Source of the DNA: a virus
Length of the DNA: 64,000 nt
Virus record (IMG/VR): IMGVR_UViG_3300017963_007659
Location: 122,315 to 186,314 of that record
Strand: one strand, 5' to 3'
The notes below the pieces were generated by a model, which searched no databases, was not told the DNA's origin, and saw only the letters and a list, made by a program, of their open reading frames with translations. The first letter of the stretch is position 1, and each line of letters starts with the position of its first letter. Position numbers and translations under genes: made by a program. Shown in pieces: positions 2,870-62,301 of this stretch.

Positions 2870-3201
2870 TGGGGAAAATAAAGTACGGCAACAAGAAAAG
2901 TCACGGTGGTGCGATGGCAAAAGCCATGGTCGTTGGGATGGAGAAGAGGCATGCTCACGCGCAGACGGCGAAGCGAAAGAGGATCTTCAGTAGATTCATG
3001 AAGACAGAGAAGGGTCGGCAGGTCGCGGCGCAGATTGAAGCTGGAGCCCTCCCTGCCGAGAGCATCGAAGTCGATGGCAACAACATCGAAGTCAAGGCGA
3101 CCGTCAATCCAGAGGTTGCAGAGGACACTTCCTCCGATGAAGGCTCAGAAAACGAGTCAAAGGATCAGGAGGAGGAAGGCGATGAGCGAACGGAAGATTG
3201 A
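2869..3201 (+). CDS. Hypothetical protein (basic N-terminus, acidic C-terminus)
   Basis: Start overlaps the upstream stop (TGATG); phage-like codon use. Confidence 0.7.
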   Translation: MGKIKYGNKKSHGGAMAKAMVVGMEKRHAHAQTAKRKRIFSRFMKTEKGRQVAAQIEAGALPAESIEVDGNNIEVKATVNPEVAEDTSSDEGSENESKDQEEEGDERTED

Positions 3202-3514
3202 CTTCGTTGACGGTGATGTCGTGCTGTTCCTGTCTGGAGGCGTGGCGGTTCGCCGAGATGGTGTGGGGATGTATCGGGTGGATATCCGAGATGAGCCACA
3301 TACCATCCAAATCTACTACCATGCAGGTGTTGGCTTTATCAACATAAACGATAACAGTCGTGACACAAGGATGCGCCTGCTTCTTCCGAGGGGGCTTGGG
3401 TCCAATCTTGAAGACGATATCGTCAGTGCTATGCTGGAGTTGGAGATCCTCTCTCAGATCAACAGCGACAAGGCTCAGAAGGGCAAGCTGCCTGACGGTT
3501 GGGCGAAGAAATGA
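3182..3514 (+). CDS. Hypothetical protein
   Basis: ATG at 3182 after GGAGG; in frame with track ORF 3035..3514. Confidence 0.65.
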   Translation: MSERKIDFVDGDVVLFLSGGVAVRRDGVGMYRVDIRDEPHTIQIYYHAGVGFININDNSRDTRMRLLLPRGLGSNLEDDIVSAMLELEILSQINSDKAQKGKLPDGWAKK

Positions 3515-3651
3515 CCTCTTCCAACGAGAAGTCCTATCGTGCCGTTGAGATGGCTAAGGTGTCTGCGCGCTATCGTCTCCGACTCGTCCGTAAGGTCATT
3601 GAAAAGCTAGACAAGAAAGCCTCAAGTAGAACCTCCGTTTCCGCACACTAA
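3511..3651 (+). CDS. Small hypothetical protein (46 aa), not in ORF track
   Basis: ATGA overlap with upstream stop; MTSSNEKSYRAVEMAK...SAH. Confidence 0.4.
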   Translation: MTSSNEKSYRAVEMAKVSARYRLRLVRKVIEKLDKKASSRTSVSAH

Positions 3652-3721
3652 CACCTCCTACGTTACTATGCGGTTCCACTGTTATCGAAATCCAGTCAAA
3701 GTACAGTAAGTGAGAAGACAG

Positions 3722-4201
3722 ATGGCAAACAAAGAGGAAGAGCTGTACTACATTCAGGACACACGCAGTGTGGTAGGAGACTGCGTTCTGTGGTGGGGTC
3801 CAGACGGCAATGGCTACACCCTCAATATCGAAAGGGCTGGCCTATACACCTACAAGCAGGCGTCGAGCCATCGGGAAACCGACGTTCCTTGGCCAAAGTC
3901 CATGGTCGACAGCCTCATCTCTTCTCATGTGCATATCGACAGCTTGAGAACGGTTCCCACAGTTGAGGTCAAGCGGTGGAAAGGCGATTGGTACAAAACC
4001 ACACACCAGGTCGTCCGGACAACGGAAACGCAGATCCTCATTTCGTGCGGACAGCGAGAGGAGCGCTACAGTCGAAAGACGGGACGTCGCGTCGGAGCTT
4101 CCAAGCAAGGACTCCGGAGCGCGAGACTCCCGCGCATCGAAAAGAGAGAACTCAAGTGGCTTGAGTCGAGGCTCACGAACACGTGGAACAAAAAACGCTG
4201 A
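3722..4201 (+). CDS. Phage hypothetical protein
   Basis: ORF (YYIQDTRSVVGDCVLWWGPDGNGYT) preceded by the AGTCAAAGTA motif at 3694. Confidence 0.7.
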   Translation: MANKEEELYYIQDTRSVVGDCVLWWGPDGNGYTLNIERAGLYTYKQASSHRETDVPWPKSMVDSLISSHVHIDSLRTVPTVEVKRWKGDWYKTTHQVVRTTETQILISCGQREERYSRKTGRRVGASKQGLRSARLPRIEKRELKWLESRLTNTWNKKR

Positions 4202-4247
4202 AGTTTTGAGAGCAATTCTCAAAGAAAGGTAGTCAAAGTATATTGTC

Positions 4248-5429
4248 ATGAAGGTTTATCGCTCGACACGCTGTACCTTGAAGTACACCAATCCACACAA
4301 GCTGGACATCTTGTCTGAGATTATAGACGAGTACGGCAGGGTGGTGCGGTTGTACATCGACTTGTTCTGGGAAAAGTCGCGATACCTTCATAATAATGAC
4401 CTCTTGAAGCCTGTCATCGAATCAATCCCTCCGACGTGGCTGGGATATAAATTCAAAAGGGACGCGGCTCGTGAGGCTCTGCGAAACATCCGGTCTATAA
4501 CGAATAGACCAGGGACGCCACAAAAGAAGCCGAACTATAAAGGGCGGTCAATGACTCTCCATTTTGACACCGCCTATCTGACGGACTCCAAAAAGACAGA
4601 TTCTTTTGACGCCTGGTTTAGATTGCGTGGAGTTGGGAAGTATTCGGATACAGGAGAGGGGATATGCATCGCTTTTCCTATAAAATTCCACAAGCATTTC
4701 AATCAATTGAGCGCCAAAGGAAGGCGCGTCAATACTATCCATGTCTATCGGGACTCAGTACAATTCATCTTTGAACTTGAGACCGGGGAGAAGAGGACCA
4801 AGGGCAAGCAGGTCGGAGTCTACACAAATGGGGAGACTCTTGCCACTATCTCCGATGGCACGAAGTACGGTACGGACATCGGACGCTATGTCGATCGTGT
4901 ACAAAGATGCGTGCCTGGGTCAAAGGGCCACAGGAAGGCGCAGCGAGCGCTCAAACAGCGTCTGAATGAAGTAGTCAAAGAAATTGGGCGTAAGCATGTC
5001 AAGCTCTTTGTGCTTGAGCGTGCCAAACCCAAGAAGGATGCGATAGGCGGACGTTGCTCGCCAGAAAACAAGCAACGATCTCTCGGTATCTGGGCATACA
5101 CCTACTGGTTGGAGAGGTTTCATAGAGAGTGTGAGATGAGACGTTCTCGCTTTCGCTCTACCGCTCCTGTATATACCAAGACGTGTTGTTCAGCATGTGG
5201 AAGTACCGAGAGGAGTAATCTGTCCGGTGAAACGTTCCTGTGTACCACATGTGGTCATAGGAGCAAAGCAGCAGTGAACGTTGCTCAAAACACTTTGGAC
5301 AGGTATCTCTCTGGACCCTACGGTGCCAGATTCAAACCCGGACGCTCTGGAAAACGAGGTCAGGGAACGGTATTTGTACAATCGCCTATCTCTCAAAAAC
5401 AGGGATCGACGAAAGGACTACAAGAATGA
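4248..5429 (+). CDS. TnpB-like protein with inactivated RuvC (TldR-like, nuclease-dead)
   Basis: TnpB layout with CCSAC/CTTC zinc finger and GPYGARFKP tail. RuvC-I reads VGVYTN (D to Y), RuvC-II VLE retains E, RuvC-III reads KAAVNVAQN (D to A). Confidence 0.8.
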   Translation: MKVYRSTRCTLKYTNPHKLDILSEIIDEYGRVVRLYIDLFWEKSRYLHNNDLLKPVIESIPPTWLGYKFKRDAAREALRNIRSITNRPGTPQKKPNYKGRSMTLHFDTAYLTDSKKTDSFDAWFRLRGVGKYSDTGEGICIAFPIKFHKHFNQLSAKGRRVNTIHVYRDSVQFIFELETGEKRTKGKQVGVYTNGETLATISDGTKYGTDIGRYVDRVQRCVPGSKGHRKAQRALKQRLNEVVKEIGRKHVKLFVLERAKPKKDAIGGRCSPENKQRSLGIWAYTYWLERFHRECEMRRSRFRSTAPVYTKTCCSACGSTERSNLSGETFLCTTCGHRSKAAVNVAQNTLDRYLSGPYGARFKPGRSGKRGQGTVFVQSPISQKQGSTKGLQE

Positions 5430-5773
5430 CCTACTGTTGTCCTCTATGTGACCTGGAGATCACCAAGGACCGTCCGTACTGTAGCAACATGTACTGCACC
5501 GTCGGCTACTACAACTGTCTATCCATGAACTGTCTATCCATGCCAGATGCTCCAGACATGGAGGATGTCGACAATCCTCTGGATAAACGGGAAGCTCTCA
5601 ATCGAAAGCAGGGTTCCTATTTTGGAGTGGATGCGGCTTCTCAGTGGCTACTGGAGAGAGCAGCATATTCTTTCACGAAGAATCAGGATGACACAGCGCG
5701 CACTCTCAGGGAGGCAGCTACCCTGATGCGTGACTCCAAGAAGGATATCCTCGCAGACTCGAACGAAGGGTAA
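5426..5773 (+). CDS. Hypothetical protein with N-terminal Cys cluster
   Basis: ATGA overlap; CCPLC...YCSNMYC. Confidence 0.65.
   Translation: MTYCCPLCDLEITKDRPYCSNMYCTVGYYNCLSMNCLSMPDAPDMEDVDNPLDKREALNRKQGSYFGVDAASQWLLERAAYSFTKNQDDTARTLREAATLMRDSKKDILADSNEG
5513..5542 (+). repeat. Perfect 15-nt tandem duplication (NCLSM x2)
   Basis: AACTGTCTATCCATG twice. Confidence 0.95.
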
Positions 5774-5829
5774 GTCCTCGGTTATTGTGATTTAGGGGCA
5801 TTTTACGCCTCTGGACACAACGAGGCTTC

Positions 5830-6846
5830 ATGGTTGCTACCAAACCACCGGACTACATCTACAAGGATATTCCCCGATCCACCGCTGAAGCTGTTCAGAA
5901 CAACGCCTATGAGGAGTCCCTCGTCCTCGTCAAGTCCGCCATCCAGCACTACCTTAATCAGTTTTTCGATTCAGATGGGAAGTATCGAAGACTTGTAGAG
6001 TCTGTGTGCCCAACTGTAGGACAATTCGTTACAGACGTTCGTGTCCCTCGGCCTGGAGAATACGAAGACCCAACAAAGTACAAAATTCAGATCGCTCGGA
6101 TGTGGCAAGGTCTCAAGCAGCGTCTTCCTTGCATCGTCATTGCGGAGACTGGCTGGACTCGTCAGAACTCTCTGAGTGACATCTCGGGTGGTATCTCCGT
6201 GCCGGGGACCGATGGGCTCCAGCACTCTCCGTTGTGGCTCAGCAACTTCCTCATGGGGAGCATCGATATTCTTGTAGGGGCGTTGGATGAACATACGACA
6301 GGGCAGATAACTTCCCAACTTATCAATATCTTTGGGCCTTTGAAGGAGTTCACCAAAGAGACAATCTTGAAGCCGACGACACCTACAGGTGGGTCAACCT
6401 GGGAAGTTCGGCTTCCGATGAATCAAACCATCAGCTCCAGAGAGCGAATCAACATCGGAGATGACCCTGTCTCGTCGCTGTGGTCGGCTACGCTGTCCTT
6501 GGATGACGTCCACTTCGAGGGGTCAACACCTCTCGATATGGAGGCTGCTGTTCCGACGGAGCCCGATTATGGTCCGAATACCCCTGTAGACAGCGATGAC
6601 TTCCCTGACACCACAATCGTTGTTTCCTCTCCGGTTAAGTTGGGGAGAGCCCAACCATTCCGTGTAGTTAACGAACGCTACAGCGCCGTCATCTACAGCG
6701 ACAATCCCCGTGTGGCACTGATACGGGGCTACACCATCATCCCTAGGAAAGTTGGTACATTTAATATAGTCGTGGCTAATGGTAATAGTGTTGGTCTTGA
6801 GGCCGACATCTTTGCAAAGCAAGAGGTGTCTGTGGCACTTATATAG
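5830..6846 (+). CDS. Putative virion structural protein (tail completion/terminator-like) with C-terminal Ig-like segment; last 29 codons supplied by the TnpB element
   Basis: 338-aa ORF just upstream of the sheath gene, preceded by a GGTTAT motif at 5780. Function is inferred from context only. Confidence 0.55.
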   Translation: MVATKPPDYIYKDIPRSTAEAVQNNAYEESLVLVKSAIQHYLNQFFDSDGKYRRLVESVCPTVGQFVTDVRVPRPGEYEDPTKYKIQIARMWQGLKQRLPCIVIAETGWTRQNSLSDISGGISVPGTDGLQHSPLWLSNFLMGSIDILVGALDEHTTGQITSQLINIFGPLKEFTKETILKPTTPTGGSTWEVRLPMNQTISSRERINIGDDPVSSLWSATLSLDDVHFEGSTPLDMEAAVPTEPDYGPNTPVDSDDFPDTTIVVSSPVKLGRAQPFRVVNERYSAVIYSDNPRVALIRGYTIIPRKVGTFNIVVANGNSVGLEADIFAKQEVSVALI

Positions 6847-8088
6847 CTCAGAGAGGGTTAGATAGCTAGTAGGCGCATAGAGCAGCAATCACATAGAAAT
6901 TTAATGTTTGTGGCACATAAAATAGCGTTATCTCCTACCCCAGATCAGGAGACGTACTTCAGGAAAGCAGCAGGTACAGCGCGCTTCGCTTATAATTGGG
7001 CTTTAGACCAATGGGTATCTCTTTACCGATTGGGAGAAAAGCCAAGTGAAGCTATGATCCGAAAAAACTTAAACAAGATCAAGTATATTGAATTCCCTTG
7101 GATGAAAGACGTTTCAAAAACGGTACCACAACAATCGATTAAAAATCTGGGAAAGGCTTTCAACAACTTTTTCAATAAGCGTGCTAAATACCCGAAATAT
7201 AAGAAACTTGGGAGGCATGACGCATTCCGTGCGGATAATGGTCCTCAAACTAAAGGAGCCGATGCGGTCCAGGTTAATGGAAAATCAGTCGGCATACCAA
7301 AACTCGGCTGGGTACGAATGCGAGAAGCGCTTCGTTTTGAAGGCCAAATAAAGTCCGCTACGATCTCACGAAGAGCCCAGCGGTGGTACATCAGTTTTTT
7401 GGTTGATAGCCCGCTTTGCTCCTTCCAGCGCGAAAACCAAGCAGTTGGAGGAGTAGACCTTGGTCTTCGTTGGATGGCTGTTACAAGCGATGGTGTCTTC
7501 TATGAGAATCCGAAGCCGCTGAAAGCTAACTTGAGGAAGCTTAAGAGACTACAGCGACAACTTCGCAACAAGAAGAAGGGGTCGAACAGACGGACGCGAC
7601 TCCAACATCGGATCGCGGAGCTTCATGTGAGAATCGCTGATATCAGAAAAGATGCTCTGCATAAGGCGACGACATCCTTGGTTAGAGATTACTCTACAAT
7701 TGTTATCGAAGACCTAAATGTAGTGGGGATGCTGAAGAATCGTTATCTCTCCAGAGCTGTCTCGGATGTGGGATTGTACGAATTCCGTCGTCAACTTGAG
7801 TACAAAGCGAAGTGGTATGGGACAAAAGTCCTCTTAGCAGATCGTTGGTTCCCTTCCAGCAAACTCTGTTCGTGTTGTGGCTATAAGTACTCAGAACTAA
7901 AGCTTGGAATGGAATCGTGGGTGTGTCCTGTCTGTAAGACAGAGCATGATAGAGACCGGAACGCAGCTATCAATCTACGGGAAGTTCTCCCGGAAGTTAC
8001 GCACGTGGAGACCACGTCCTCTACTTCTCTAGCTGGACTAGAGAAGCAAGGCAGGTCGATGAAGCGTGAACTTGTTGAAAGAGAACGG
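6756..8088 (+). mobile_element. Non-autonomous TnpB element (1333 bp, no TnpA), IS607-like GG junctions, carrying a recoded host-gene 3' end
   Basis: Left junction GTTGG|TACATTT, right junction GAGAACGG|TACTTTT. GG-to-GG removal restores an intact 338-codon gene. The element is visibly more AT-rich than its flanks. Confidence 0.85.
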
Positions 8089-8097
8089 TACTTTTAA
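6904..8097 (+). CDS. tnpB: RNA-guided endonuclease TnpB, catalytic triad intact
   Basis: N-terminal HTH (AGTARFAYNWAL), GGVDLG, VIEDLNV, WFPSSKLCSCC...CPVC, HDRDRNAAIN. Confidence 0.95.
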   Translation: MFVAHKIALSPTPDQETYFRKAAGTARFAYNWALDQWVSLYRLGEKPSEAMIRKNLNKIKYIEFPWMKDVSKTVPQQSIKNLGKAFNNFFNKRAKYPKYKKLGRHDAFRADNGPQTKGADAVQVNGKSVGIPKLGWVRMREALRFEGQIKSATISRRAQRWYISFLVDSPLCSFQRENQAVGGVDLGLRWMAVTSDGVFYENPKPLKANLRKLKRLQRQLRNKKKGSNRRTRLQHRIAELHVRIADIRKDALHKATTSLVRDYSTIVIEDLNVVGMLKNRYLSRAVSDVGLYEFRRQLEYKAKWYGTKVLLADRWFPSSKLCSCCGYKYSELKLGMESWVCPVCKTEHDRDRNAAINLREVLPEVTHVETTSSTSLAGLEKQGRSMKRELVERERYF

Positions 8098-8108
8098 CAT
8101 AGTGGTTG
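7985..8108 (+). ncRNA. Predicted TnpB omegaRNA 3' scaffold plus about 20-nt guide (guide begins 8089); 5' boundary approximate
   Basis: Hairpins ACGTGG/CCACGT (8003-8017) and CTTCTCTAG/CTAGAGAAG (8024-8046); long-range AAGTT-ACGC/GCGT-AACTT pairing; ends at GAGAACGG. The guide is placed by the known TnpB rule (sequence 3' of the right end). Confidence 0.7.
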
Positions 8109-8179
8109 CTGATGGCAACTCCACAGGGCTCGAAGCTAGAATTTTTGCAACTCAGGAAGTCTCTGTATCTCTCATATGA
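8089..8179 (+). pseudogene. Displaced original 3' end (29 codons plus stop) of the 5830..6846 gene
   Basis: Reads TFNIVVADGNSTGLEARIFATQEVSVSLI* versus TFNIVVANGNSVGLEADIFAKQEVSVALI* at 6756..6846; both are 91 nt. Confidence 0.92.
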
Positions 8180-8283
8180 TCTGGTCGCACGGATGCGTCT
8201 TATAAAGACGACCTCTCTAGAGCGAGGTTATCTTTAGACGATATCGATGAAATTGACCAAATAAGAACGGAGCGTTCAGAACC

Positions 8284-11200
8284 ATGGCTGACGTCTTAGT
8301 CACATCACAATATGTGCTCCCAGGTTCGTACCTAGGAAGAATCTACACACCCAACGCCGGAACGCTGTCGGGCGACCCAAGACAACCCTGTTACGTTGGG
8401 AAGGGTAGTCGACTTGCGACCGCAGCGAACGTTCCGATCCGCCGTGCGTTTTTGCAGGGAGAGGTCATCCCCTTCCCGCAGACGGTGCCGCACTTGGTAA
8501 CTCTTGCGCACCCATCGGATGGCGACCAGACGTTGGCAACGATGACTACACAGTCGGGGGCTGTCATTCCAGCCTCGAAGTGGCAGTTCCAGAAGTCCGC
8601 TCCCGGTATCACAGGATACGACCAAATTCTGCTGTTGCCGGAAGCCTTCAACTCCACCTCGACCTACACTCTCGACTACCAGACCATCGACCGAGATGTT
8701 GTCGATGATGTCCCGTTTGACGAGATGCGTCAAATGGTTAGAGTAGGCGACTACCAGGACCAGGATTTCTACTCCGAGCAGGTGGACTACCGCGTTATCA
8801 CCTCCAATACGGATCCAGTTCCGGACCCGACGGTGGCGAACGCGACGACTACGCTGTTCACTCCTGTTCAGCAGACGGCTACGGGTGGTGGTGCTCCGAC
8901 TCCGACGGTCAATGTTGGTGCCACCTACACAGGGCAGCACAACAGGCACTATCGCTTTGAGGCGGTTGGGCTCGCACCGCTGACCTTCTTGGTGGACATC
9001 ACCAACGAGGGTGGCGGCAACAACCTGACTCCGGACTATCCGGTAGGTCCGAACATCAGCGGGCTGACCTTCCCGGTCGCTATCGCGGGTGCTTACGACC
9101 TCGACTCTCAGATGGGGCTCACCTCTCTTGGTGTGCTAGTCGACCTCGACCCGGCTGACCCTGGTGTCTGGGCTGTTGGTGACGTTTTTGAGTTCAACGC
9201 GCTTGGACCGTCCGTCATCGAATTGGACCCAACCTACGACAACACCAACCAGTTCTCTTCGGTTTCTGCCCTCACAGCAGCGGCTGGAAATGGTGGAACT
9301 GGTACAGTGACACTGAACCCCAATACGGACTTCACGGGATCGACGAACAAAGATGTGCGCATCGAATGTGCCTCCTTTGCTGGTCTGTCTCCGAACCGAA
9401 CCGCTCTCTTCGATTGGCAGACCTACGGGGCTGATGCGATTGAGAAGGGATCGATTCTTGTAGATGAGTCTGTCGCGGGGAACCTGATCAACCGAACGGT
9501 AGCCGATGGAATCTCTGTCGACTTCGACTTCGGCACGGATGCTGGTGGAAACAGCGCGAACTTCGTTTTTGCGGCTGGTATCATCACCTTCGATGCGGGT
9601 ACAGGTACCTTCACTCCTAGCATGGTTGGTCGGCAGATCACCATCGTTGGAGCCACTACCCCTGCGAATGATGGTACCTTCGTCATCGCTTCCTATATCT
9701 CTCCAACACAAATCACCTACGCCAACGCTCTTGGTGTAACCGAGGTTGGAGCAGGTACCTGGGTTGTGGAAGGTTTCTTCGTTCCGACCTCAGCGACGAC
9801 ACAGGGCGACCTCTTCACGACGGCTGCTACTGCCCCCATGCTCTATTACACGGGTAAGGACGACCGAGAGTACACTCTGGAGGTCACAGCAGCTACGTCT
9901 ACTCCGTTCACCGCAGTGACTGGTGTTGCGATTGCTCCAACGAATACGTTCGACGTCGCAACGGATCTCACGACAGCCATCGCGCTTCATCCGAACATTC
10001 GGGTCGAAGGTTCGACGGGCAACGACAATCTCTATACGGTCCAGTCCACCTCCTACGATTCTGGAACGGACACCACGACTATCACCACAGTCGAGAACGT
10101 CCCGAATGCCGTAGCAGATGGAAACCTCTGGTACGGAACAGGCGCAGCGTCCATCTTCTGGTCGACAGCTACTCCTGAAGGTGGTTTCGGTACCCTTTCT
10201 CTGTTGGATAACGACACGGCTTCACCGCTCGCCGATGAGATCAAGTTCTATGTCCGAAACTCTGGAAATCCGCTGCTTCGCTCGGATGCTCAGAATCAGA
10301 GAAACGTCATCGCAGACGTCTGGACCTTCACGGTTACGAATGAGGATGAGATCTCTTGGACGCTCGCAGCGCGCGAGACGGAGACCATCGCTGTAGCGGA
10401 CCTTCGACAAGATACCACGGGTTCCATCACAGGAGCTTCTGGTGGCGTTCCTGGCACGCGTTACCTCATCCTTGAGCAAACTCCTACGATCCAGCCTCTT
10501 CGAGTGTGGACGACCAACCCGACGACCAGTGTCACCACTGAGCTGACGGTTGCAACGACACCTCCCTATGTCGCTGGTTCGGACGCCTACTGGATCACCG
10601 GGACACCGTACATCTTCTTCCCGACGACTCCGACTGAGCCTGTCTCGGTCACCTACCAGCACAGAGCGTTGGAGCCGGATCCTGGACAGGTCTACTACAT
10701 CACGTCGTACTACCTGCGACCCCTCAACTTCTACAACAACCCGATTCGGTTGCTGAACGAAGACGAGGCGATCTCGGTTCTCGGTCCCATGGACCCCGAG
10801 AACGACCTTCTCATCATGGCTCTCGTTGCCCTGGTGGACTGCAACGCCTTCGCTGTTTGGGTCACGCAGGTTCGAGACACAGACGATGACGGTGTGTATA
10901 CCACATACGACTACAACACGGCTATTGAAGCCACAGAGCTGAATGACCAACTCACGGACATCACAGTTCTACAGAACTTCGATTCGCTGTCCAAGCTGAA
11001 GACGTCTGTCATCCAGATGAACGACCCCTTCGAGCGGAAGCAGCGTCTGTGCTGGGTTGGAGCCCCCATTGGGACAGAGATTGGCGATACCGACACTCCG
11101 GACACTTTGGTCTACTTGGCCAAGAGAACGCTCCAGGTGTACGGTGAGAGCCCCGCGCACGGTGCCTTCATTCTTGTAGGCAACACGGTGTGTGAGCGCA

Positions 11201-39017: not shown

Positions 39018-42000
39018 ATGTTCAGTATAGCTAGGTCTCGTCGTCGTGCTCGACAACACAGCGTTCGGACTGCGTCTGCGCAGCCCGGTCCACAGGATGT
39101 AAGACAGGCTTTCTTCCAGCATCTGTCTGACCAGGCAAAACACAAGACGGCTTCCCATTCGAGGACAGCGACGTCTCCTGGTAGGACGTATTACAACCCG
39201 ACGTATGATGACCTGACGCTGGACACTCTCACTTCTCGTTTCATTCCAAACGATTACAGGAAGCAGAACGAGCTTTGGCGGAAAATCTACGTAGAGGATG
39301 CTACGGCAGGACCCGCTGTCGACCTCTACAAGGATATGCCATGGTCTGACTTCGGTCTCCTTGGAGTCAAAGACCCCAAGATTCTCCAAATCTACGAAGA
39401 CTGCCTCGAAGCCATCCAGCTCGAATCGCAGCTTCCTTTCATTTCACTCGATTTTCTCATGTTGGGTCGGTTCATCCCTCACTTCCTCTTCGACTCCTCG
39501 AAGGGGTACTGGTCTCGGATGATTCTCCATGACCCAGACTATATCAAGATCAGCCCCATCCCTATCCCAGGGTTGGCTCCGAAGCTCGACCTCGTGCCTA
39601 CAGACGCGATGAAACAGTTCGCACGGAGCAAGGACCCCAGAGACATCGCGGCTAAGCAGCAGCTCTCTCAGGACCTCTTGGCCTATCTCCTTAAAGGACA
39701 GGAGATTCCTCTCGACCCGCGCAACACCTCCTACATTGCTAGAAGGTCCTCAGCGACGGACTCTGTAGGGACCTCCATCTACACAAGGATCCTCGATATC
39801 ATCGCCTACCAGAAGGGTCTCATTCAAGGGTCTCAGGCTGCTGTGCGTCGTCGCCTTGGAGCAGTACGGACCGTCACGGTAGGAAACGAGGATTGGGAAC
39901 CAACAGTAGGCGAGATCAACGAAGCCGTTGAAGCTCTTCTGGCTGCCGAAGAGGACCCTGTAGGAGCTGTCGTAGGTGTCCGACAGGGTATCGAGTTCAG
40001 TGAAGCTGGTGGTGGTTCGGCTCAGGATATCTTAAAAATCAGTGATGAGTGGCAATTTATCACCGAAGCGAAGATGCAAGCTCTTGGAATCAATGAGTCA
40101 TTTTTGAGTGGTGACGCCACCTATTCATGTCTGACCGGAGACACCCTTGTTCCAACGAAGGAACAGGGGATTGTACGTCTAGACGAGTTGCTCAAAGAAA
40201 AGAACCCAGACGAAAAGACTCCCCGTCCTTTGAGCGTTACAGTAGACTCTCGTTTTGGACTGGCTAGTACAAAAGTTTGGCTCTACAACGGGAAAGCTCC
40301 AACATACCGCATTCTTACAGAAAGTGGTAATGAACTGACAGGTACTCCAACGCATCCCCTGTTGGTACTGCGAGGAGTCGACCTAGACTTCGTAGAGCTG
40401 AGAGATCTTCAAGAAGGAGACCTCCTCTGTATCAGCACAAATAAGGTGGTGAGAGAGACCACATTGGAATTCTCTCTCAGTGATGCCTGTAAGAAGACTG
40501 AGGACTCTTTTGTCACGTGTGCTGAGTGTGGAAAAACATACAAGAGTCTTGGGTCGCATATCCTCGCTCATGGTTTGGATACAAAAGGCTACTTGACGAA
40601 GCATCCTGGAGCATCTCTGACTAGTGCCTCTGCGCGGCAAAATATTGCCAATGGAGCAACCAAAGAGGTCCAGAAGCCACGCGCCATGACGCCAATGCTC
40701 GCCTATGTGTTGGGCAGTCTGACGGCTGAAGGGTGGCGTGATAAGTACTCCTTCTGGTTCTCCAACTCTGATCTCTCTTTCCTGGATAAAGTAGAGGGTT
40801 TTGTCGCTGAGGTGTTCGGGCTGACAGGAACCAGGCACCTTATGCTTGAAGAGGGTACCCCTCAAAGTATCAATGGTGTCGAGACAGTATGCCATAAGAA
40901 CGTCTACGCCACTAAATTTGATAGCCTTCCTGTATGCTGCTGGTTGAATGAACTAGGATTCACGGAGAAGAAGTCTCTCGAAAAAGAGGTTCCGTGGTCT
41001 ATTCTTCAAGCAGACGCGTCTTCTCAGAATGCCTTCTTGGCAGCTTTCTTGGAAGGAGATGGGTCTGTTAGAGAGAACAGAGAGCAGGCTACCTTCCTGA
41101 GTGGAAGTCCAGAACTTCTTCGCGGCATTCAAGCGGTGCTCAATGCGCATGGCTATGCTTCAGCTCGTCGGAATGGTCGACGGCTGACCTTGGACCGTCA
41201 TGATAGCCTTGAACTCTACAAGAATCTCAAGCCGTATGTTCTCACGAAAAGCATCGTGCAGGGAAGGAAGCTAAAGTCTAGGAATCGTTTTGGAATTCCT
41301 ATTGAGCCCTTGCAAGAATTCTTGAAAGCCCGTCAAACAAAGACCAACAGACACGGGAGCTTCTACAAGAATGACTCGGGTGAGGAAGTCTGCATCAGTT
41401 GGCATAAACTAGGGACGCATCCTCTTCGTGATGAGAAGCGCCTGTTGTATGACCGTGATGACCGTGGCGATTACACGAGTCTGCTGACAGCGCTCCACAA
41501 AATTAGCCCAAGTTTCACTGCGAAGTTGAAGGCTCTTTTTGTACTACGATATCGATTCACTCCTGTTACTTCCATTGACGAGGCTGGAGAACACGCTGTG
41601 TACGACCTCTCTATGGAGGACCGAGAGAATCGTTCCTTTGTAGCAAATGGTCTACTTTCCAGTAATACAATGGAGACCCTGTTGTCAGTTTTCCTGGAAA
41701 GGGTACGGGCACACCGGGAGTTCATCACCAGATTCTTCATCGAAGACAAGATCCTTAAGCCAATCGCTGAGATCAACAACTTCCGACGCATCCCCGAGAA
41801 GAAGCTCGCGCACCGCTACCGTATCGCCGACTCGACGACGAACGAAGAGTGGATGATCCCTACGGTTCAGTTCTCCAAGAATCTCCGTCCTGTAGCCGAC
41901 CGTGAGTATCTAGAAATTCTGGAGATGGCGCAAGAGCGCGGTCTCCCTGTCACTCTGAAGACGTGGGCTACCTTTGCGGGGTTCGACCTTCAAGATGAGC

Positions 42001-44117
42001 TGGAGCGTCTTCCGGAAGACTTGGCGCTTCGTCGGTCTCTACGAGAATACCAAGCGGCGACGGACCCAGACTACGCGGACAAGATCCAGAACATCACTCA
42101 AGAGTCTGGTCTGGTTGTGCCCCTGAGAGTTTGGGCCAACTCGATTGGTTTGGATATCGATGAGCTGGCTTTGGCTATGGAAGATGATGTAGCACTGCGG
42201 AGGAAGTTCCGTCAGTGGGCTCTACAAGCATCTCCTGAAATGCCAGATAAGATTCGTGACGCTATAGAGCAGGGCGTCCCCGTTCCAATCGCGGAGGTTT
42301 CCTCTGCCTACGGGTTGAACCTCGACAAGCTTCTTGAAGTCAAGGATGACGATGTTGCTCTCCGTGTAGAGATCAAGAAGTGGCTGACGGCTGTGAGTCC
42401 GGAAGCACGCGACTTCCTGGAGATGGCTCAAGACAAGGGTATCCCTGTCAACCTAGAGATGTGGGCCAAGGTCCTGGGTCTCGACCTCGCACAGCTCCGA
42501 ACAGAAGCGCCTGAAGATATTCAACTCCGTCAAGAGCTGACACCTTGGCGCAATGCCGCTGAAGGTGAATTCGAGGGAGAAGAAGGAGGAGAAGAGGAAG
42601 GCGACTTCGGGGAGCTTCCTGGCTTCGGTGGTGCAGAAGAGGGTGAAGAAGAAGGCGGCATGCCTCCAGAGTTGGGTCTTCCTGAGATTCCGGAAGAGCT
42701 GCCTGGAGAGGGTGAAGAGCCCCATGTTCTGGAAGTCGAGAAAGAAGACCTACCAGAATTGATCGATAAGGTCAAGGAAACGCATCCAGACGCTGAGATC
42801 CCCGAGCTGCCTCCAGAGGTGAAGGATGAGCTGGAAGAAGGGGAAAAGGTTCCTGGAGCTGAGGGAGCTGAGGGAGCTGAGGAAGAGATTCTTGAAGAGG
42901 AGCTGCCTCCTCCGACGCCGAAGAAGCGTCCTGTCCGCAAGCTCACTCCTGAACAAGAGGAGAAGCTCACAAAGTCCATCCGAGACGTTCTGATGGAGGC
43001 GTTGAAGACGCACAAGAAGGCGGCTGATACGGCACAAGCAGCGACGAAGTTCTACAAGAATGGCTACTTCTCTCTCGCTGATACCATCTATAAGAAAGGT
43101 GTCACGGCGACGTCGGAAGATGTTCCTGTAGATCTCGGCTACCTCCTGGATGGAATTCTTCCGGATGATGTCATACCTCCACAGGGATACTTGAAGTCTG
43201 ACGTCTTGGAGTATAAGACGGTCGACATTCCTATGGATGAGTGGCAGAACCTCATTGACAAGCTGAACCAGACGCAGGCTCGCCAGTCTGGTTCGTGGGG
43301 GAAGTCTCTCGCGGAGTTCTTGAGGACCAAGAGTCCCTTCCCGACACATCCGCAGAACGCGCTGACTTGTGTCTCCCGTGTACGCATCTTTGTGTCGCAT
43401 AAAACCAAGTATGTTCGGATAGTTCCTGAGCTGTCCTCTGATAGGCCGGATTTCTACACATGCACGTACTACAATGTTGTGCGGTTGAAGCGTCCGGATG
43501 AGATTGACCCCAAGAAGCTCCTCTTGACGGACCTGGAGCGCTCCTTCCAGATGCAGTTGCTTCTGGCTGATCCTCCGAAAGAAGAGGTCCCTCTTCCGGA
43601 CGTGGTTCCGGTGGAGACTCCTGCTGCTCCTCCGCAGCCTCCTCAAGTGGTCAACATTAACATCCCTGAAGGAACGTCGGAGCAGGTTGTTCAGATCATG
43701 CGCAGCCTTCCCATTTGGAGTCGGGACAAAAAGTTCGTCGACCTCCGTCAGAGAGAAGCCGAAGTCCTCGTCAAAAAGGTGTTGAACGCCAGGGGTATTG
43801 GTCGTCAGGGACGCTATGCCATGCAGATGGGATTGCTCAATCCCAAGAAGAAGCAGCTTGCACAGTACATTCTGGCGAGACTGGGACTCATTAAGGACGT
43901 CTCATTGGAGCCGGATGTTGCTGCTGACATCGTGAACCATCTGACCAAGAGGGTTCCACAGGCTGCAAATCCAGAGCAGGTCAACGAATTGTTCATGATG
44001 GCGTCCATGAAGACTGATGATAATCAGCCGAGACGGGCAGCTCCTGAACAAAACACTCGGAATTGGCCCATGGCTTCCAGCCAACTTTTGACCGGGCACA
44101 TCCCAAAATCCAAATAA
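39018..44117 (+). CDS. Portal protein with intein and long C-terminal extension
   Basis: Lies between terminase and protease; AGPAVDLYKDMPWS, AEEDPVGAVV, ALGINESFLSGDATY portal-like blocks. Confidence 0.8.
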   Translation: MFSIARSRRRARQHSVRTASAQPGPQDVRQAFFQHLSDQAKHKTASHSRTATSPGRTYYNPTYDDLTLDTLTSRFIPNDYRKQNELWRKIYVEDATAGPAVDLYKDMPWSDFGLLGVKDPKILQIYEDCLEAIQLESQLPFISLDFLMLGRFIPHFLFDSSKGYWSRMILHDPDYIKISPIPIPGLAPKLDLVPTDAMKQFARSKDPRDIAAKQQLSQDLLAYLLKGQEIPLDPRNTSYIARRSSATDSVGTSIYTRILDIIAYQKGLIQGSQAAVRRRLGAVRTVTVGNEDWEPTVGEINEAVEALLAAEEDPVGAVVGVRQGIEFSEAGGGSAQDILKISDEWQFITEAKMQALGINESFLSGDATYSCLTGDTLVPTKEQGIVRLDELLKEKNPDEKTPRPLSVTVDSRFGLASTKVWLYNGKAPTYRILTESGNELTGTPTHPLLVLRGVDLDFVELRDLQEGDLLCISTNKVVRETTLEFSLSDACKKTEDSFVTCAECGKTYKSLGSHILAHGLDTKGYLTKHPGASLTSASARQNIANGATKEVQKPRAMTPMLAYVLGSLTAEGWRDKYSFWFSNSDLSFLDKVEGFVAEVFGLTGTRHLMLEEGTPQSINGVETVCHKNVYATKFDSLPVCCWLNELGFTEKKSLEKEVPWSILQADASSQNAFLAAFLEGDGSVRENREQATFLSGSPELLRGIQAVLNAHGYASARRNGRRLTLDRHDSLELYKNLKPYVLTKSIVQGRKLKSRNRFGIPIEPLQEFLKARQTKTNRHGSFYKNDSGEEVCISWHKLGTHPLRDEKRLLYDRDDRGDYTSLLTALHKISPSFTAKLKALFVLRYRFTPVTSIDEAGEHAVYDLSMEDRENRSFVANGLLSSNTMETLLSVFLERVRAHREFITRFFIEDKILKPIAEINNFRRIPEKKLAHRYRIADSTTNEEWMIPTVQFSKNLRPVADREYLEILEMAQERGLPVTLKTWATFAGFDLQDELERLPEDLALRRSLREYQAATDPDYADKIQNITQESGLVVPLRVWANSIGLDIDELALAMEDDVALRRKFRQWALQASPEMPDKIRDAIEQGVPVPIAEVSSAYGLNLDKLLEVKDDDVALRVEIKKWLTAVSPEARDFLEMAQDKGIPVNLEMWAKVLGLDLAQLRTEAPEDIQLRQELTPWRNAAEGEFEGEEGGEEEGDFGELPGFGGAEEGEEEGGMPPELGLPEIPEELPGEGEEPHVLEVEKEDLPELIDKVKETHPDAEIPELPPEVKDELEEGEKVPGAEGAEGAEEEILEEELPPPTPKKRPVRKLTPEQEEKLTKSIRDVLMEALKTHKKAADTAQAATKFYKNGYFSLADTIYKKGVTATSEDVPVDLGYLLDGILPDDVIPPQGYLKSDVLEYKTVDIPMDEWQNLIDKLNQTQARQSGSWGKSLAEFLRTKSPFPTHPQNALTCVSRVRIFVSHKTKYVRIVPELSSDRPDFYTCTYYNVVRLKRPDEIDPKKLLLTDLERSFQMQLLLADPPKEEVPLPDVVPVETPAAPPQPPQVVNINIPEGTSEQVVQIMRSLPIWSRDKKFVDLRQREAEVLVKKVLNARGIGRQGRYAMQMGLLNPKKKQLAQYILARLGLIKDVSLEPDVAADIVNHLTKRVPQAANPEQVNELFMMASMKTDDNQPRRAAPEQNTRNWPMASSQLLTGHIPKSK
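40128..41666 (+). mobile_element. Intein (513 aa) with LAGLIDADG homing endonuclease and C2H2-like insert
   Basis: TYS|CLTGDTLV...LGSLTAEG...FLAAFLEGDGSV...VYDLSM...FVANGLLSSN|TME. Confidence 0.92.
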
Positions 44118-61755: not shown

Positions 61756-62301
61756 CTAGGACAATAGACCGGTGCGCGACGAGAGGATATTACTACATGA
61801 CTTCGCCAACTTGAAGATGTTGAACTGCATGTCATCGATCCTCCACATACCCTTCCTGATGAGGTACTGTGTCAAAATCAGGGCTGCGAACTTCGGCACG
61901 CCAAGAGGTCTACCACGGTCCCCTGGGTGTTCAGATGCTAGCACCCTTAATCTTTTGACGAGTTCAGTTGGAAGTGTGACGCGGACTTCGGTTTCGGCGC
62001 GTTCGTCGAGTCCTGGGATGGCGAAGCTCTTCGCGACGAGTTGAGCGAGCTTCATGCTTCGGCTGCGGACTGCGGGGGCTTTGTACTCCAATGTAGCAAG
62101 GTCGACGGCTTCGGAACTCTTGCCGTTGGAAATCATCTCAGCAAACCTGTGTAGGTTGTCATGGCACGTGGGGCACAGGTATACGAGATTGTCTTTGGTG
62201 TCTTTTCCTCCTGCGGCTCGGGGGACTTTGTGGTGTTCATGTGCGAGTTTTCTTGGTTTCAACTGTTTGCAAATGTAGCAGGTGACCAATTGTACGCCCA
62301 T
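61756..62301 (-). CDS. HNH endonuclease with C-terminal extension
   Basis: CYIC...HEHHKVPRAAGG...NLVYLCPTCHDNLH. Confidence 0.85.
   Translation of the reverse strand: MGVQLVTCYICKQLKPRKLAHEHHKVPRAAGGKDTKDNLVYLCPTCHDNLHRFAEMISNGKSSEAVDLATLEYKAPAVRSRSMKLAQLVAKSFAIPGLDERAETEVRVTLPTELVKRLRVLASEHPGDRGRPLGVPKFAALILTQYLIRKGMWRIDDMQFNIFKLAKSCSNILSSRTGLLS

What the first reader, a model, noticed from the sequence alone, without database searches (positions are those of the whole stretch)
4231..5429. Domesticated nuclease-dead TnpB (TldR-like) driven by a phage promoter motif
SEEN: a full-length 393-aa ORF with an intact zinc finger but two of three RuvC acidic residues replaced (D to Y at 4821-4823, D to A at 5271-5273). 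The accessory-gene motif AGTCAAAGTA lies 7 nt before its ATG, it overlaps the next gene (ATGA), and no TnpA is nearby. KNOWN: TldRs are RNA-guided repressors derived from TnpB. INFERENCE: this may be an independent phage domestication as an RNA-guided regulator or DNA binder. It lies only about 1.5 kb from an active TnpB of a different subfamily, so it could also act as a decoy.
Basis: partly seen in the sequence, partly recalled or inferred. Interest (0 to 1): 0.7.

Follow-up and report, generated by a model that had tools for sequence, protein, structure and literature searches.

The report
Nuclease-dead TnpB still carrying its guide RNA
A large marine phage carries one copy of a transposon-type RNA-guided DNA cutter (TnpB) that has lost its cutting residues but keeps its guide-RNA scaffold and transposon end, so it may still bind DNA; nothing shows it has become a gene regulator.

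Summary
The ORF at 4248-5429 (393 aa) is a TnpB. It is the only one of 137 full-length relatives that lacks RuvC Asp192 (Tyr) and Asp342 (Ala). Glu257 and the four zinc-finger Cys are kept.

New here:
- **Family:** it is IS607-like, and 32 of 74 relatives' loci carry a serine recombinase upstream. A covarying 40-pair omega-RNA lies inside the ORF's 3' end, and elements end at AACGGT.
- **RNA retained:** the window keeps 34 of 40 pairs (24 expected from its protein alone, P = 4e-4) and GGGAACGGT at 5363-5371. The predicted guide (5372 onward) is therefore simply its own flank.
- **No target:** no second match was found in the 186-kb phage record or in viral contigs. Bacterial genomes gave only chance-level hits.
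- **Singleton:** the nearest homologue is 44% identical, and the gene is absent from syntenic related phages.
- **Erosion pattern:** family-conserved positions changed more in the catalytic pocket (about 47%) than elsewhere (about 21%), and the ORF is intact.

Verdict: an immobilised, nuclease-dead TnpB-omegaRNA element still in its insertion architecture. It probably still binds DNA under RNA guidance. TldR-like domestication is only partly supported, and simple decay is nearly as likely. The scan has reported dead TnpBs in other large phages.

The parts
4231..4240 (+). Phage gene-start motif AGTCAAAGTA, 7 nt before the ATG
   Evidence: The core GTCAAAGTA occurs 21 times in the 186-kb record, usually preceded by AAAnCT(A/G). 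Most copies lie 4-28 nt upstream of an ORF start on the same strand.
4248..5429 (+). TnpB-family ORF, 393 aa (P0001), RuvC triad Y192 / E257 / A342
   Evidence: AlphaFold2 model pLDDT 82; Foldseek top hits are Cas12f, TnpB and Fanzor2.
4821..4823 (+). Codon 192, TAC (Tyr), in place of the first RuvC Asp
   Evidence: Asp in 136 of 136 relatives.
5016..5018 (+). Codon 257, GAG (Glu), the second RuvC acidic residue, retained
   Evidence: Glu in 137 of 137.
5187..5252 (+). Zinc-finger CxxC...CxxC (Cys314, 317, 332, 335), intact
   Evidence: Cys in 137 of 137 at all four positions.
5271..5273 (+). Codon 342, GCA (Ala), in place of the third RuvC Asp
   Evidence: Asp in 136 of 136 relatives. The neighbouring family Asp at position 339 is Ser here.
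5133..5371 (+). Omega-RNA-like scaffold embedded in the 3' end of the ORF
   Evidence: Family consensus of 40 pairs, 26 with compensatory changes, 95.7% of cells paired against 36-48% for slid controls. The window keeps 34 of 40 pairs against 24.1 +/- 2.4 under synonymous resampling. MFE -88.6 kcal/mol, z = -3.1.
5363..5371 (+). GGGAACGGT, the near-invariant end of the family's element (right end / last scaffold bases)
   Evidence: For the second TnpB, homology to empty alleles in related phages resumes at its own GAACGGT (8083-8089).
5372..5391 (+). Predicted guide, which is the flank immediately after the scaffold (ATTTGTACAATCGCCTATCT)
   Evidence: The position is inferred from the family architecture. 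No second match was found.
5426..5773 (+). Next ORF, 115 aa, Cys-rich ORFan; its start overlaps the TnpB stop (ATGA) and has its own AAAGGA Shine-Dalgarno
   Evidence: no homologue in 5.8 billion proteins.
6904..8097 (+). Context: second, canonical TnpB with D/E/D intact, of a different subfamily
   Evidence: It is absent from related phages.

Best explanation
This is one copy of an IS607-like TnpB/omega-RNA element, a type common in large phages. It still has its original insertion layout: ATG at the left edge, guide-RNA scaffold embedded in the last ~240 nt of the ORF, terminal AACGGT, then flank. Its RuvC pocket has been destroyed (D192Y, G194N, D339S, D342A, remodelled lid), so it can no longer cut DNA or home.

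The rest of the protein and the RNA scaffold look maintained. The most likely present state is therefore a ribonucleoprotein that still forms and binds, without cutting, DNA carrying the family's TAM next to ATTTGTACAATCGCCT... That sequence is the unoccupied form of its own site, for example in co-infecting relatives.

It is probably transcribed from the phage motif 7 nt upstream, together with the 115-aa ORF whose start overlaps its stop.

Shown: family membership, loss of the two Asp, retention of RNA pairing and of the end motif, singleton status. Inferred: that an RNP forms, that it binds DNA, that the motif is a promoter, and any benefit to the phage.
For: - Unique loss of two catalytic Asp among 137 relatives.
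- Multi-step codon changes at the active site, read from the sequence: family Asp at 342 would be GAY against GCA here, Gly at 194 GGN against AAT, Asp at 339 GAY against AGC. This argues for an old inactivation.
- At family-conserved columns, the RuvC motifs plus lid deviate at 9 of 19 positions against 19 of 91 elsewhere (Fisher p = 0.02). Other family members deviate at about 10% in both classes.
- The 393-codon ORF is intact on a 1.21 substitutions/site end branch.
- The family omega-RNA is strongly supported by covariation. The window keeps 34 of 40 pairs, many through compensatory changes, against 24.1 +/- 2.4 expected from its protein sequence alone (P = 4e-4).
- The scaffold region folds with z = -3.1.
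- GGGAACGGT is retained at 5363-5371. The same heptamer marks the true right-end boundary of the neighbouring TnpB, judged against empty alleles.
- The fold is TnpB/Cas12f-like, pLDDT 82.
- The same allele is 100% identical in assemblies from at least two studies, dated 2018 and 2021.
Against: - It is a singleton, so there are no orthologues for dN/dS.
- No polymorphism is available: the other contigs are 100% identical.
- P0001 is also the most deviant member outside the pocket (11 of 54 columns conserved at 90% or more, against a median of 1). It ties for the most broken RNA pairs (6 of 40). General relaxation of constraint is therefore evident.
- The timing of inactivation relative to the retained features is unknown. 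The retained features could be inherited from the active ancestor.
- The pocket-versus-rest contrast rests on small counts (p = 0.02-0.05).
- The ORF could be kept open only to allow translational coupling to the next gene.
- The family's TAM is unknown, so binding sites cannot be predicted fully.
Confidence: 0.45

Rival explanations
1. Decaying relic. A homing-type TnpB element became fixed in this phage lineage and no longer had empty sites to cut. It is drifting towards loss, as in the classical homing-endonuclease cycle. The protein and RNA have no selected function. The ORF is still open by recency, or because read-through translation helps the overlapping downstream ORF.
For: - Transposon architecture is fully retained and the guide equals its own flank.
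- It is a singleton, absent from syntenic relatives that are 70-80% identical in flanking genes.
- It lies in a hypervariable accessory stretch of a phage crowded with selfish elements: a second TnpB, an intein in the portal gene, an HNH gene, and an intein signal in the ribonucleotide reductase gene.
- Divergence is raised everywhere: 11 of 54 conserved columns, 6 of 40 pairs broken, and an end branch about 3 times those of its sisters.
- No target was found.
Against: Erosion is concentrated in the catalytic pocket rather than uniform. If the pocket changes are neutral drift (about 0.3 substitutions per site), a 1.2-kb neutral ORF should have acquired many stops or frameshifts, yet it has none. 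That estimate is my own inference. RNA pairing is kept well above what the protein sequence alone would give.
Confidence: 0.4
2. True TldR-type regulator. The guide has been re-targeted to a promoter of the phage or of its host, and the RNP represses transcription there.
For: It is nuclease-dead with an intact zinc finger and scaffold. It sits 7 nt behind a phage gene-start motif, like other genes of that class. Phage-borne TldRs exist (10.1101/2023.11.30.569447; PMC13418256).
Against: - The guide position is fixed by AACGGT, and the sequence there is the local flank.
- There is no second site in the 186-kb record beyond chance: 11-of-12 matches number 2 against about 0.8 expected.
- There is no 20-mer match in viral contigs.
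- The 9 scattered 18-mer hits in 596 Gb of genomes compare with about 17 expected. They lie at unrelated positions, apart from two orthologous Chitinophaga sites.
- There are no extra scaffold copies in the record.
- There is no conserved dead clade and no conserved gene partner.
- The earlier suggestion that ACTACAAGAAT (5417-5427) is a guide against early promoters fails. It lies 46 nt past the scaffold end and is one of 134 copies of the genome's commonest 10-mer.
- The host genome is unknown and only about half of the phage is in the record, so a target cannot be excluded.
Confidence: 0.08
3. Still an active nuclease. Another acidic residue, for example Glu196, substitutes in the RuvC site.
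For: Glu257 is retained, and a new Glu sits at position 196 where the family has Asn or Lys.
Against: Both Asp are lost, and no acidic residue lies anywhere in the motif III stretch HRSKAAVNVAQN. Single D/E/D mutations abolish cleavage in ISFba1 TnpB (D194, E290, D371; PMC11061315); the same is reported for ISDra2 TnpB, which I cite from my own knowledge of PMC8612924 and did not read here. The lid is remodelled and predicted disordered.
Confidence: 0.03
4. Decoy or partner for the neighbouring active TnpB. It would titrate that TnpB's omega-RNA or occupy its target.
For: Both scaffolds end in GAACGGT, and the genes lie 1.5 kb apart.
Against: The proteins are only 16% identical. A profile of this family's scaffold finds no second copy in the record, so the neighbour's RNA is not detectably related. 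The guides differ. The best 12-mer near-match of the dead guide inside the second tnpB (7783, minus strand) is at chance level.
Confidence: 0.02

Closest known systems
TldR, TnpB-like nuclease-dead repressors (Wiegand et al., bioRxiv 10.1101/2023.11.30.569447; Xiao et al., 10.64898/2026.09.22.753285)
   Same: It is a TnpB homologue with a deteriorated RuvC triad that keeps the overall fold and an adjacent or overlapping guide-RNA scaffold. It is carried by a phage. RNA-guided binding without cutting is the expected mode of action.
   Different: TldRs form conserved clades with new, stable gene partners (fliC, oppF). They lack identifiable transposon ends and have guides matching promoters next to a TAM. 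Here there is one sequence only, the right-end motif is kept, the guide equals its own flank, no target was found, and the zinc-finger/RuvC C-terminus is not truncated.
IS607-family TnpB with its omega/reRNA (ISFba1 TnpB, PDB 8IAZ, PMC11061315; IStron TnpB, PMC10690162)
   Same: Among solved structures, 8IAZ is the best natural sequence match (E = 9e-23 with the family profile). A serine-recombinase TnpA lies upstream in 32 of 74 family loci. The guide follows a conserved scaffold end.
   Different: The ISFba1 reRNA (RAGATH-18) lies wholly outside the ORF. Here the scaffold sits inside the coding sequence, and Rfam, including RAGATH-18, does not match it. The catalytic Asp residues are lost.
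Homing-endonuclease life cycle: invasion, fixation, degeneration, loss (general knowledge, not tested here)
   Same: A selfish nuclease gene is fixed at one site in a phage rich in inteins and HNH genes. Its catalytic residues are lost while the ORF is still whole.
   Different: Degeneration should affect the whole gene. Here the pocket is eroded more than the rest, and RNA pairing is retained.
Naturally nuclease-deficient Cas12 relatives (Cas12k of CASTs; dCas12f-sigmaE, PMC13472631)
   Same: They are RuvC-inactive members of the TnpB/Cas12 lineage that act through RNA-guided binding.
   Different: Those work with dedicated partner proteins (transposase, sigma factor) and CRISPR-type guides. 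No such partner is evident here.

Membership tests
TnpB (IS607-like subfamily) | TnpB/Cas12f-type fold with split RuvC motifs and a CxxC...CxxC zinc finger | tested here: met
   PHROG 506 'transposase' at 7.5e-12. There are 937 homologues at E <= 1e-3. The family profile matches TnpB and Cas12f structures. The AlphaFold2 model's Foldseek hits have probability 1.0. Pfam Cas12f1-like_TNB scores only 24.6 bits, below its 26.3 cut-off.
TnpB (IS607-like subfamily) | Catalytic D-E-D triad | tested here: not met
   The triad is Y192 / E257 / A342, unique among 137 full-length relatives.
TnpB (IS607-like subfamily) | Omega-RNA scaffold at the 3' end, followed by the guide at the transposon right end | tested here: met
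   34 of 40 consensus pairs are kept and GGGAACGGT lies at 5363-5371.
TnpB (IS607-like subfamily) | Association with a serine-recombinase TnpA | tested here: not met
   None was found in the first 20 kb of the window. In the family, 32 of 74 loci have one, so solo copies are normal.
TldR | RuvC active site inactivated | tested here: met
TldR | Inactivating changes conserved across a clade of homologues | tested here: not met
   The nearest homologue is 44% identical and has D-E-D. No closer relative exists in 5.8 billion proteins, 1.84 billion representatives or JGI metagenome contigs.
TldR | Loss of transposon ends and of TnpA; new stable gene neighbourhood | tested here: not met
   The right-end motif is retained. 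The neighbours are ORFans. The gene is absent from syntenic related phages.
TldR | Guide complementary to a TAM-flanked promoter target | tested here: inconclusive
   No second match in the 186-kb record or in viral contigs, and only chance-level hits in genomes. The host, the TAM and about half of the phage genome are unknown.
TldR | RNA-guided DNA binding and transcriptional repression shown | not testable with these tools
   This needs RIP-seq, ChIP-seq or a reporter assay.

The most novel reading that the evidence does not exclude
An independent, very young exaptation. A lytic-type marine phage keeps a nuclease-dead IS607-like TnpB with its ORF-embedded guide RNA as an RNA-guided DNA blocker. 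Its guide matches the unoccupied version of its own locus, just downstream of a phage gene-start motif. It would therefore silence that locus in co-infecting sibling phages that lack the insertion, or it would act on a still unknown host site. That would be phage-versus-phage interference by a dead transposon nuclease.
Probability: 0.15. Interest if true: 0.7.

Novelty: new member of a known kind. Interest (0 to 1): 0.35.

Why it matters
Nuclease-dead TnpBs (TldRs) are known, and the scan has flagged many in large phages. This copy may catch the step between 'selfish cutter' and 'domesticated binder': the active site is gone while the transposon end, guide scaffold and ORF are still in place. 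If it proves functional, it would show that exaptation can begin in situ without re-targeting. If it is only a relic, it documents the degeneration phase of RNA-guided homing elements in phages.

A by-product is the description of an uncurated omega-RNA class. It has 40 covarying pairs inside the coding sequence, ends in AACGGT, and belongs to an abundant phage-borne IS607-like TnpB family.

Tried and rejected
- **Rfam:** a scan of 3000-9000 and of six family loci found no family for this RNA.
- **Phage collection:** megablast of 3500-8200 against GenBank phages gave no match.
- **Closer relatives:** none exists in the protein collections or the JGI metagenome contigs, so dN/dS was impossible. 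Other contigs with the gene are 100% identical over 11.4 kb, so there is no polymorphism.
- **Empty sites:** the neighbours' homologues were sought in viral contigs and the 115-aa ORF in the protein database, with nothing found. The 20-mer guide of this element and of family member L036 matched occupied sites only. The TAM therefore could not be derived, and upstream flanks of family members show no clear motif.
- **RNA evidence:** no RNA holder was listed among public runs; there were only two DNA metagenomes, sediment 2018 and seawater 2021.
- **Host target:** the 18-mer guide gave 9 hits in genome contigs at non-homologous positions, against about 17 expected by chance.
- **Extra guide copies:** nhmmer with the family scaffold found only the one copy.
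rejected, as explained under the rival explanations.
- **My own early reading:** I first thought the right end lay inside the ORF about 40 nt before the stop. The alignment corrected this: the variable stretch precedes a conserved terminal AACGGT.
- **Sigma-70 scan:** it found only a weak TTCTCA-17-TATATT match overlapping the motif, which is not above shuffles.

Full report
**Observation.** The ORF runs from 4248 to 5429 on the + strand and encodes 393 aa (P0001). The stop TGA at 5427-5429 overlaps the ATG at 5426-5428 of a 115-aa ORF. Pfam gives only a sub-threshold Cas12f1-like_TNB match (24.6 bits against a 26.3 cut-off). PHROG 506 'transposase' matches at 7.5e-12. A full scan of 1.84 billion representatives gives 937 homologues, all of the TnpB type. 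The AlphaFold2 model (pLDDT 82; the lid at 262-277 and the tail at 366-393 are disordered) matches Cas12f, TnpB and Fanzor2 structures.

**Catalytic residues.** I aligned all 137 full-length relatives returned by the two unbiased protein searches. P0001 is the only one without Asp at 192 (Tyr), Gly at 194 (Asn) and Asp at 342 (Ala). Glu257 and the four zinc-finger Cys are invariant and present. The family's second Asp in motif III (position 339) is Ser here, and no acidic residue remains in that motif. Several of these codons need two base changes from the family state (GAY to GCA, GGN to AAT, GAY to AGC; read). Single D/E/D mutations abolish cleavage in ISFba1 TnpB (PMC11061315), so the protein is predicted to be nuclease-dead.

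**What family it is.** The nearest relatives are 43-45% identical, 360-380 aa long, and abundant on large viral contigs of up to 619 kb. One relative sits directly behind a Resolvase-domain gene with an overlapping stop and start. A serine-recombinase-like ORF lies upstream on the same strand in 32 of 74 viral loci. This is therefore an IS607-like TnpB family, and more than half of its copies are solo. Between related elements, nucleotide similarity starts at or within about 30 nt of the ATG, and upstream flanks are unrelated. The element brings no conserved upstream region of its own.

**The guide RNA.** I aligned the last 300 nt plus 40 nt of flank from 43 family loci and the window. This shows a near-invariant AACGGT after the stop codon, beyond which the loci are unrelated. 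RNAalifold predicts 40 pairs inside the coding 3' end, and 26 of them show compensatory double changes.
- Paired cells: 95.7% form standard pairs, against 83% for column shuffles and 36-48% for slid partners.
- Covariation score: 0.44, against 0.21 and 0.07-0.09 in the same two controls.

Rfam has no matching family. The window keeps 34 of these 40 pairs. The family range is 34-40 with a median of 39, so the window ties for the lowest. When I resampled synonymous codons of its own protein, only 24.1 +/- 2.4 pairs survived (P = 4e-4). Several of the kept pairs differ from the consensus on both sides. The stretch 5128-5371 folds at -88.6 kcal/mol, z = -3.1. GGGAACGGT lies at 5363-5371.

The same heptamer, GAACGGT, ends the scaffold of the second TnpB at 8083-8089. 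There, homology to three related phages that lack that element resumes at 8087. This supports reading AACGGT as the right-end boundary. The predicted guide of the dead TnpB therefore starts at 5372 (ATTTGTACAATCGCCTATCT), which is simply the local flank, as in any resident TnpB element. The family normally stops translation in a small terminal hairpin before AACGGT. Here that hairpin is remodelled and has no stop, so the ORF reads 19 codons into the flank and ends on the next gene's ATG. With no selection, a run of 19 codons without a stop has a probability of about 0.4.

**Search for a target.**
- Phage record: the guide has no second match in the 186,314-nt record beyond chance. Two 11-of-12 matches were found against about 0.8 expected.
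- Viral contigs: there is no 20-mer match.
- Bacterial and archaeal genomes: there are nine 18-mer matches in 596 Gb, against about 17 expected, at non-homologous positions apart from two orthologous Chitinophaga sites.
- Extra scaffolds: no further scaffold copy exists in the record.
That 11-mer lies 46 nt beyond the scaffold end. It is one instance of ATTCTTGWAG, the commonest 10-mer of the genome, with 134 copies. The match is not specific.

**Signs of selection or decay.** P0001 has an end branch of 1.21 substitutions per site, against 0.33-0.47 for its nearest neighbours in the tree. It deviates at 11 of 54 family columns conserved at 90% or more, where the others have a median of 1 and a maximum of 8. 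At columns conserved at 80% or more, it deviates at 9 of 19 positions in the three RuvC motif windows plus lid, but at 19 of 91 elsewhere (Fisher p = 0.02). Other members deviate at about 10% in both classes.

The pocket is therefore eroded most. The rest of the protein and the RNA are more changed than usual but far from random. If the pocket changes are neutral drift, roughly 0.3 substitutions per site have passed since inactivation. A neutral 1.2-kb ORF would then be expected to carry many stops. This is my inference, not a computed test. Dating is not possible, because the gene is a singleton and all other contigs that carry it are 100% identical over 11.4 kb.

**Context.** The motif, with core GTCAAAGTA usually preceded by AAAnCT(A/G), occurs 21 times in the record. 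Most copies lie 4-28 nt upstream of an ORF start on the same strand, often only 4 nt away and without a Shine-Dalgarno. It is a phage gene-start signal, probably a promoter with a start site at its end. P0001 is wired like the other genes of that class. Because this TnpB family has no upstream region of its own, any copy must sit behind host-phage transcription. The motif therefore does not by itself indicate domestication.

The phage is a large marine virus. The record is 186 kb and estimated 50% complete, and it was found in sediment and seawater samples. It carries many selfish elements: a second TnpB, an intein with LAGLIDADG in the portal gene, an intein signal in the ribonucleotide reductase gene, and an HNH gene.

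Four related phage contigs were found through the 338-aa gene at 5830-6846, which is 70-80% identical to their copies. None carries either TnpB. In the syntenic one (L093), a few small unrelated ORFs lie between the reductase and the 338-aa gene. The dead TnpB and the 115-aa ORFan are both absent there. The gene is thus a lineage-specific insertion in a hypervariable accessory stretch.

**Interpretation.** The element is an immobilised, nuclease-dead IS607-like TnpB/omega-RNA unit still in its insertion architecture. I give 0.45 to the reading that the non-catalytic parts are still maintained and the RNP binds DNA without cutting. It would then work like a TldR or dCas12, with the unoccupied allele of its own site as the only predictable target. 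I give 0.40 to plain decay after fixation. A re-targeted, promoter-directed TldR gets 0.08, residual nuclease activity 0.03, and a decoy for the neighbouring TnpB 0.02.

It should not be filed as a TldR. Two defining features were tested and not met: a conserved dead clade, and loss of transposon ends with a new conserved neighbourhood. One was inconclusive (a promoter target), and the functional one cannot be tested here.

**Novelty.** Nuclease-dead TnpBs are known: 506 were listed in 10.1101/2023.11.30.569447, including phage-borne ones. This scan has reported dead TnpBs in other large phages. This copy is a new, isolated member, of interest mainly as a possible intermediate. The ORF-embedded, covarying omega-RNA of its abundant phage-borne family is not curated in Rfam.

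Noticed in passing
whole record G000; in the window e.g. 5417-5427, 18349, 29694: The word TTCTTG(A/T)AG occurs 212 times in 186 kb (about 3 expected). ATTCTTGWAG occurs 134 times, split 68/66 between strands, with no conserved flanks. For the related 11-mer CTACAAGAATG (26 copies), most sites lie inside ORFs and are frame-locked: sense Y-K-N, antisense I-L-V. Its purpose is unknown.
   Followed up: partly
window 3694, 4231, 18285, 18582, 20390, 24868, 28439 and 14 more sites in G000: The gene-start motif (A)AAnCT(A/G)GTCAAAGTA lies mostly 4-28 nt before ORF starts on the same strand, often only 4 nt from the ATG with no Shine-Dalgarno. This suggests a phage-specific promoter class giving leaderless or very short-leader mRNAs.
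   Followed up: partly
window 6783-8089 versus L093:8925-8953, L095, L096: The second TnpB cassette is missing from all four related phage contigs. Homology to three of them resumes at its GAACGGT (8083-8089), and the flanks overlap by about 28 nt in the empty allele.
   Followed up: partly
L007-L080 (family loci), alignment A2 columns 82-282 and about 367-372: An abundant phage-borne IS607-like TnpB family has its omega-RNA (40 covarying pairs) almost wholly inside the coding sequence, and a terminal AACGGT. No Rfam family matches it.
   Followed up: yes
window 39018-44117: A 1699-aa portal-like gene carries an intein splicing domain, a LAGLIDADG domain and a ROS/MucR-like zinc-finger segment. 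The reductase gene at the window start also shows an intein signal in other assemblies.
   Followed up: no
window 5426-5773: A Cys-rich 115-aa ORFan (N-terminal CCPLC...C..C) starts on the stop of the dead TnpB. It has no homologue in 5.8 billion proteins and is absent from the syntenic related phage. It may have arrived together with the TnpB.
   Followed up: partly
L026:2732-2963 and L058:4521-4891: In two family loci, a HEARO (IscB-type) RNA lies immediately upstream of the TnpB, and a phage-encoded tmRNA lies just downstream on the opposite strand.
   Followed up: no
window 61756-62301 (-): A free-standing HNH endonuclease gene, one more selfish-element candidate in this phage.
   Followed up: no
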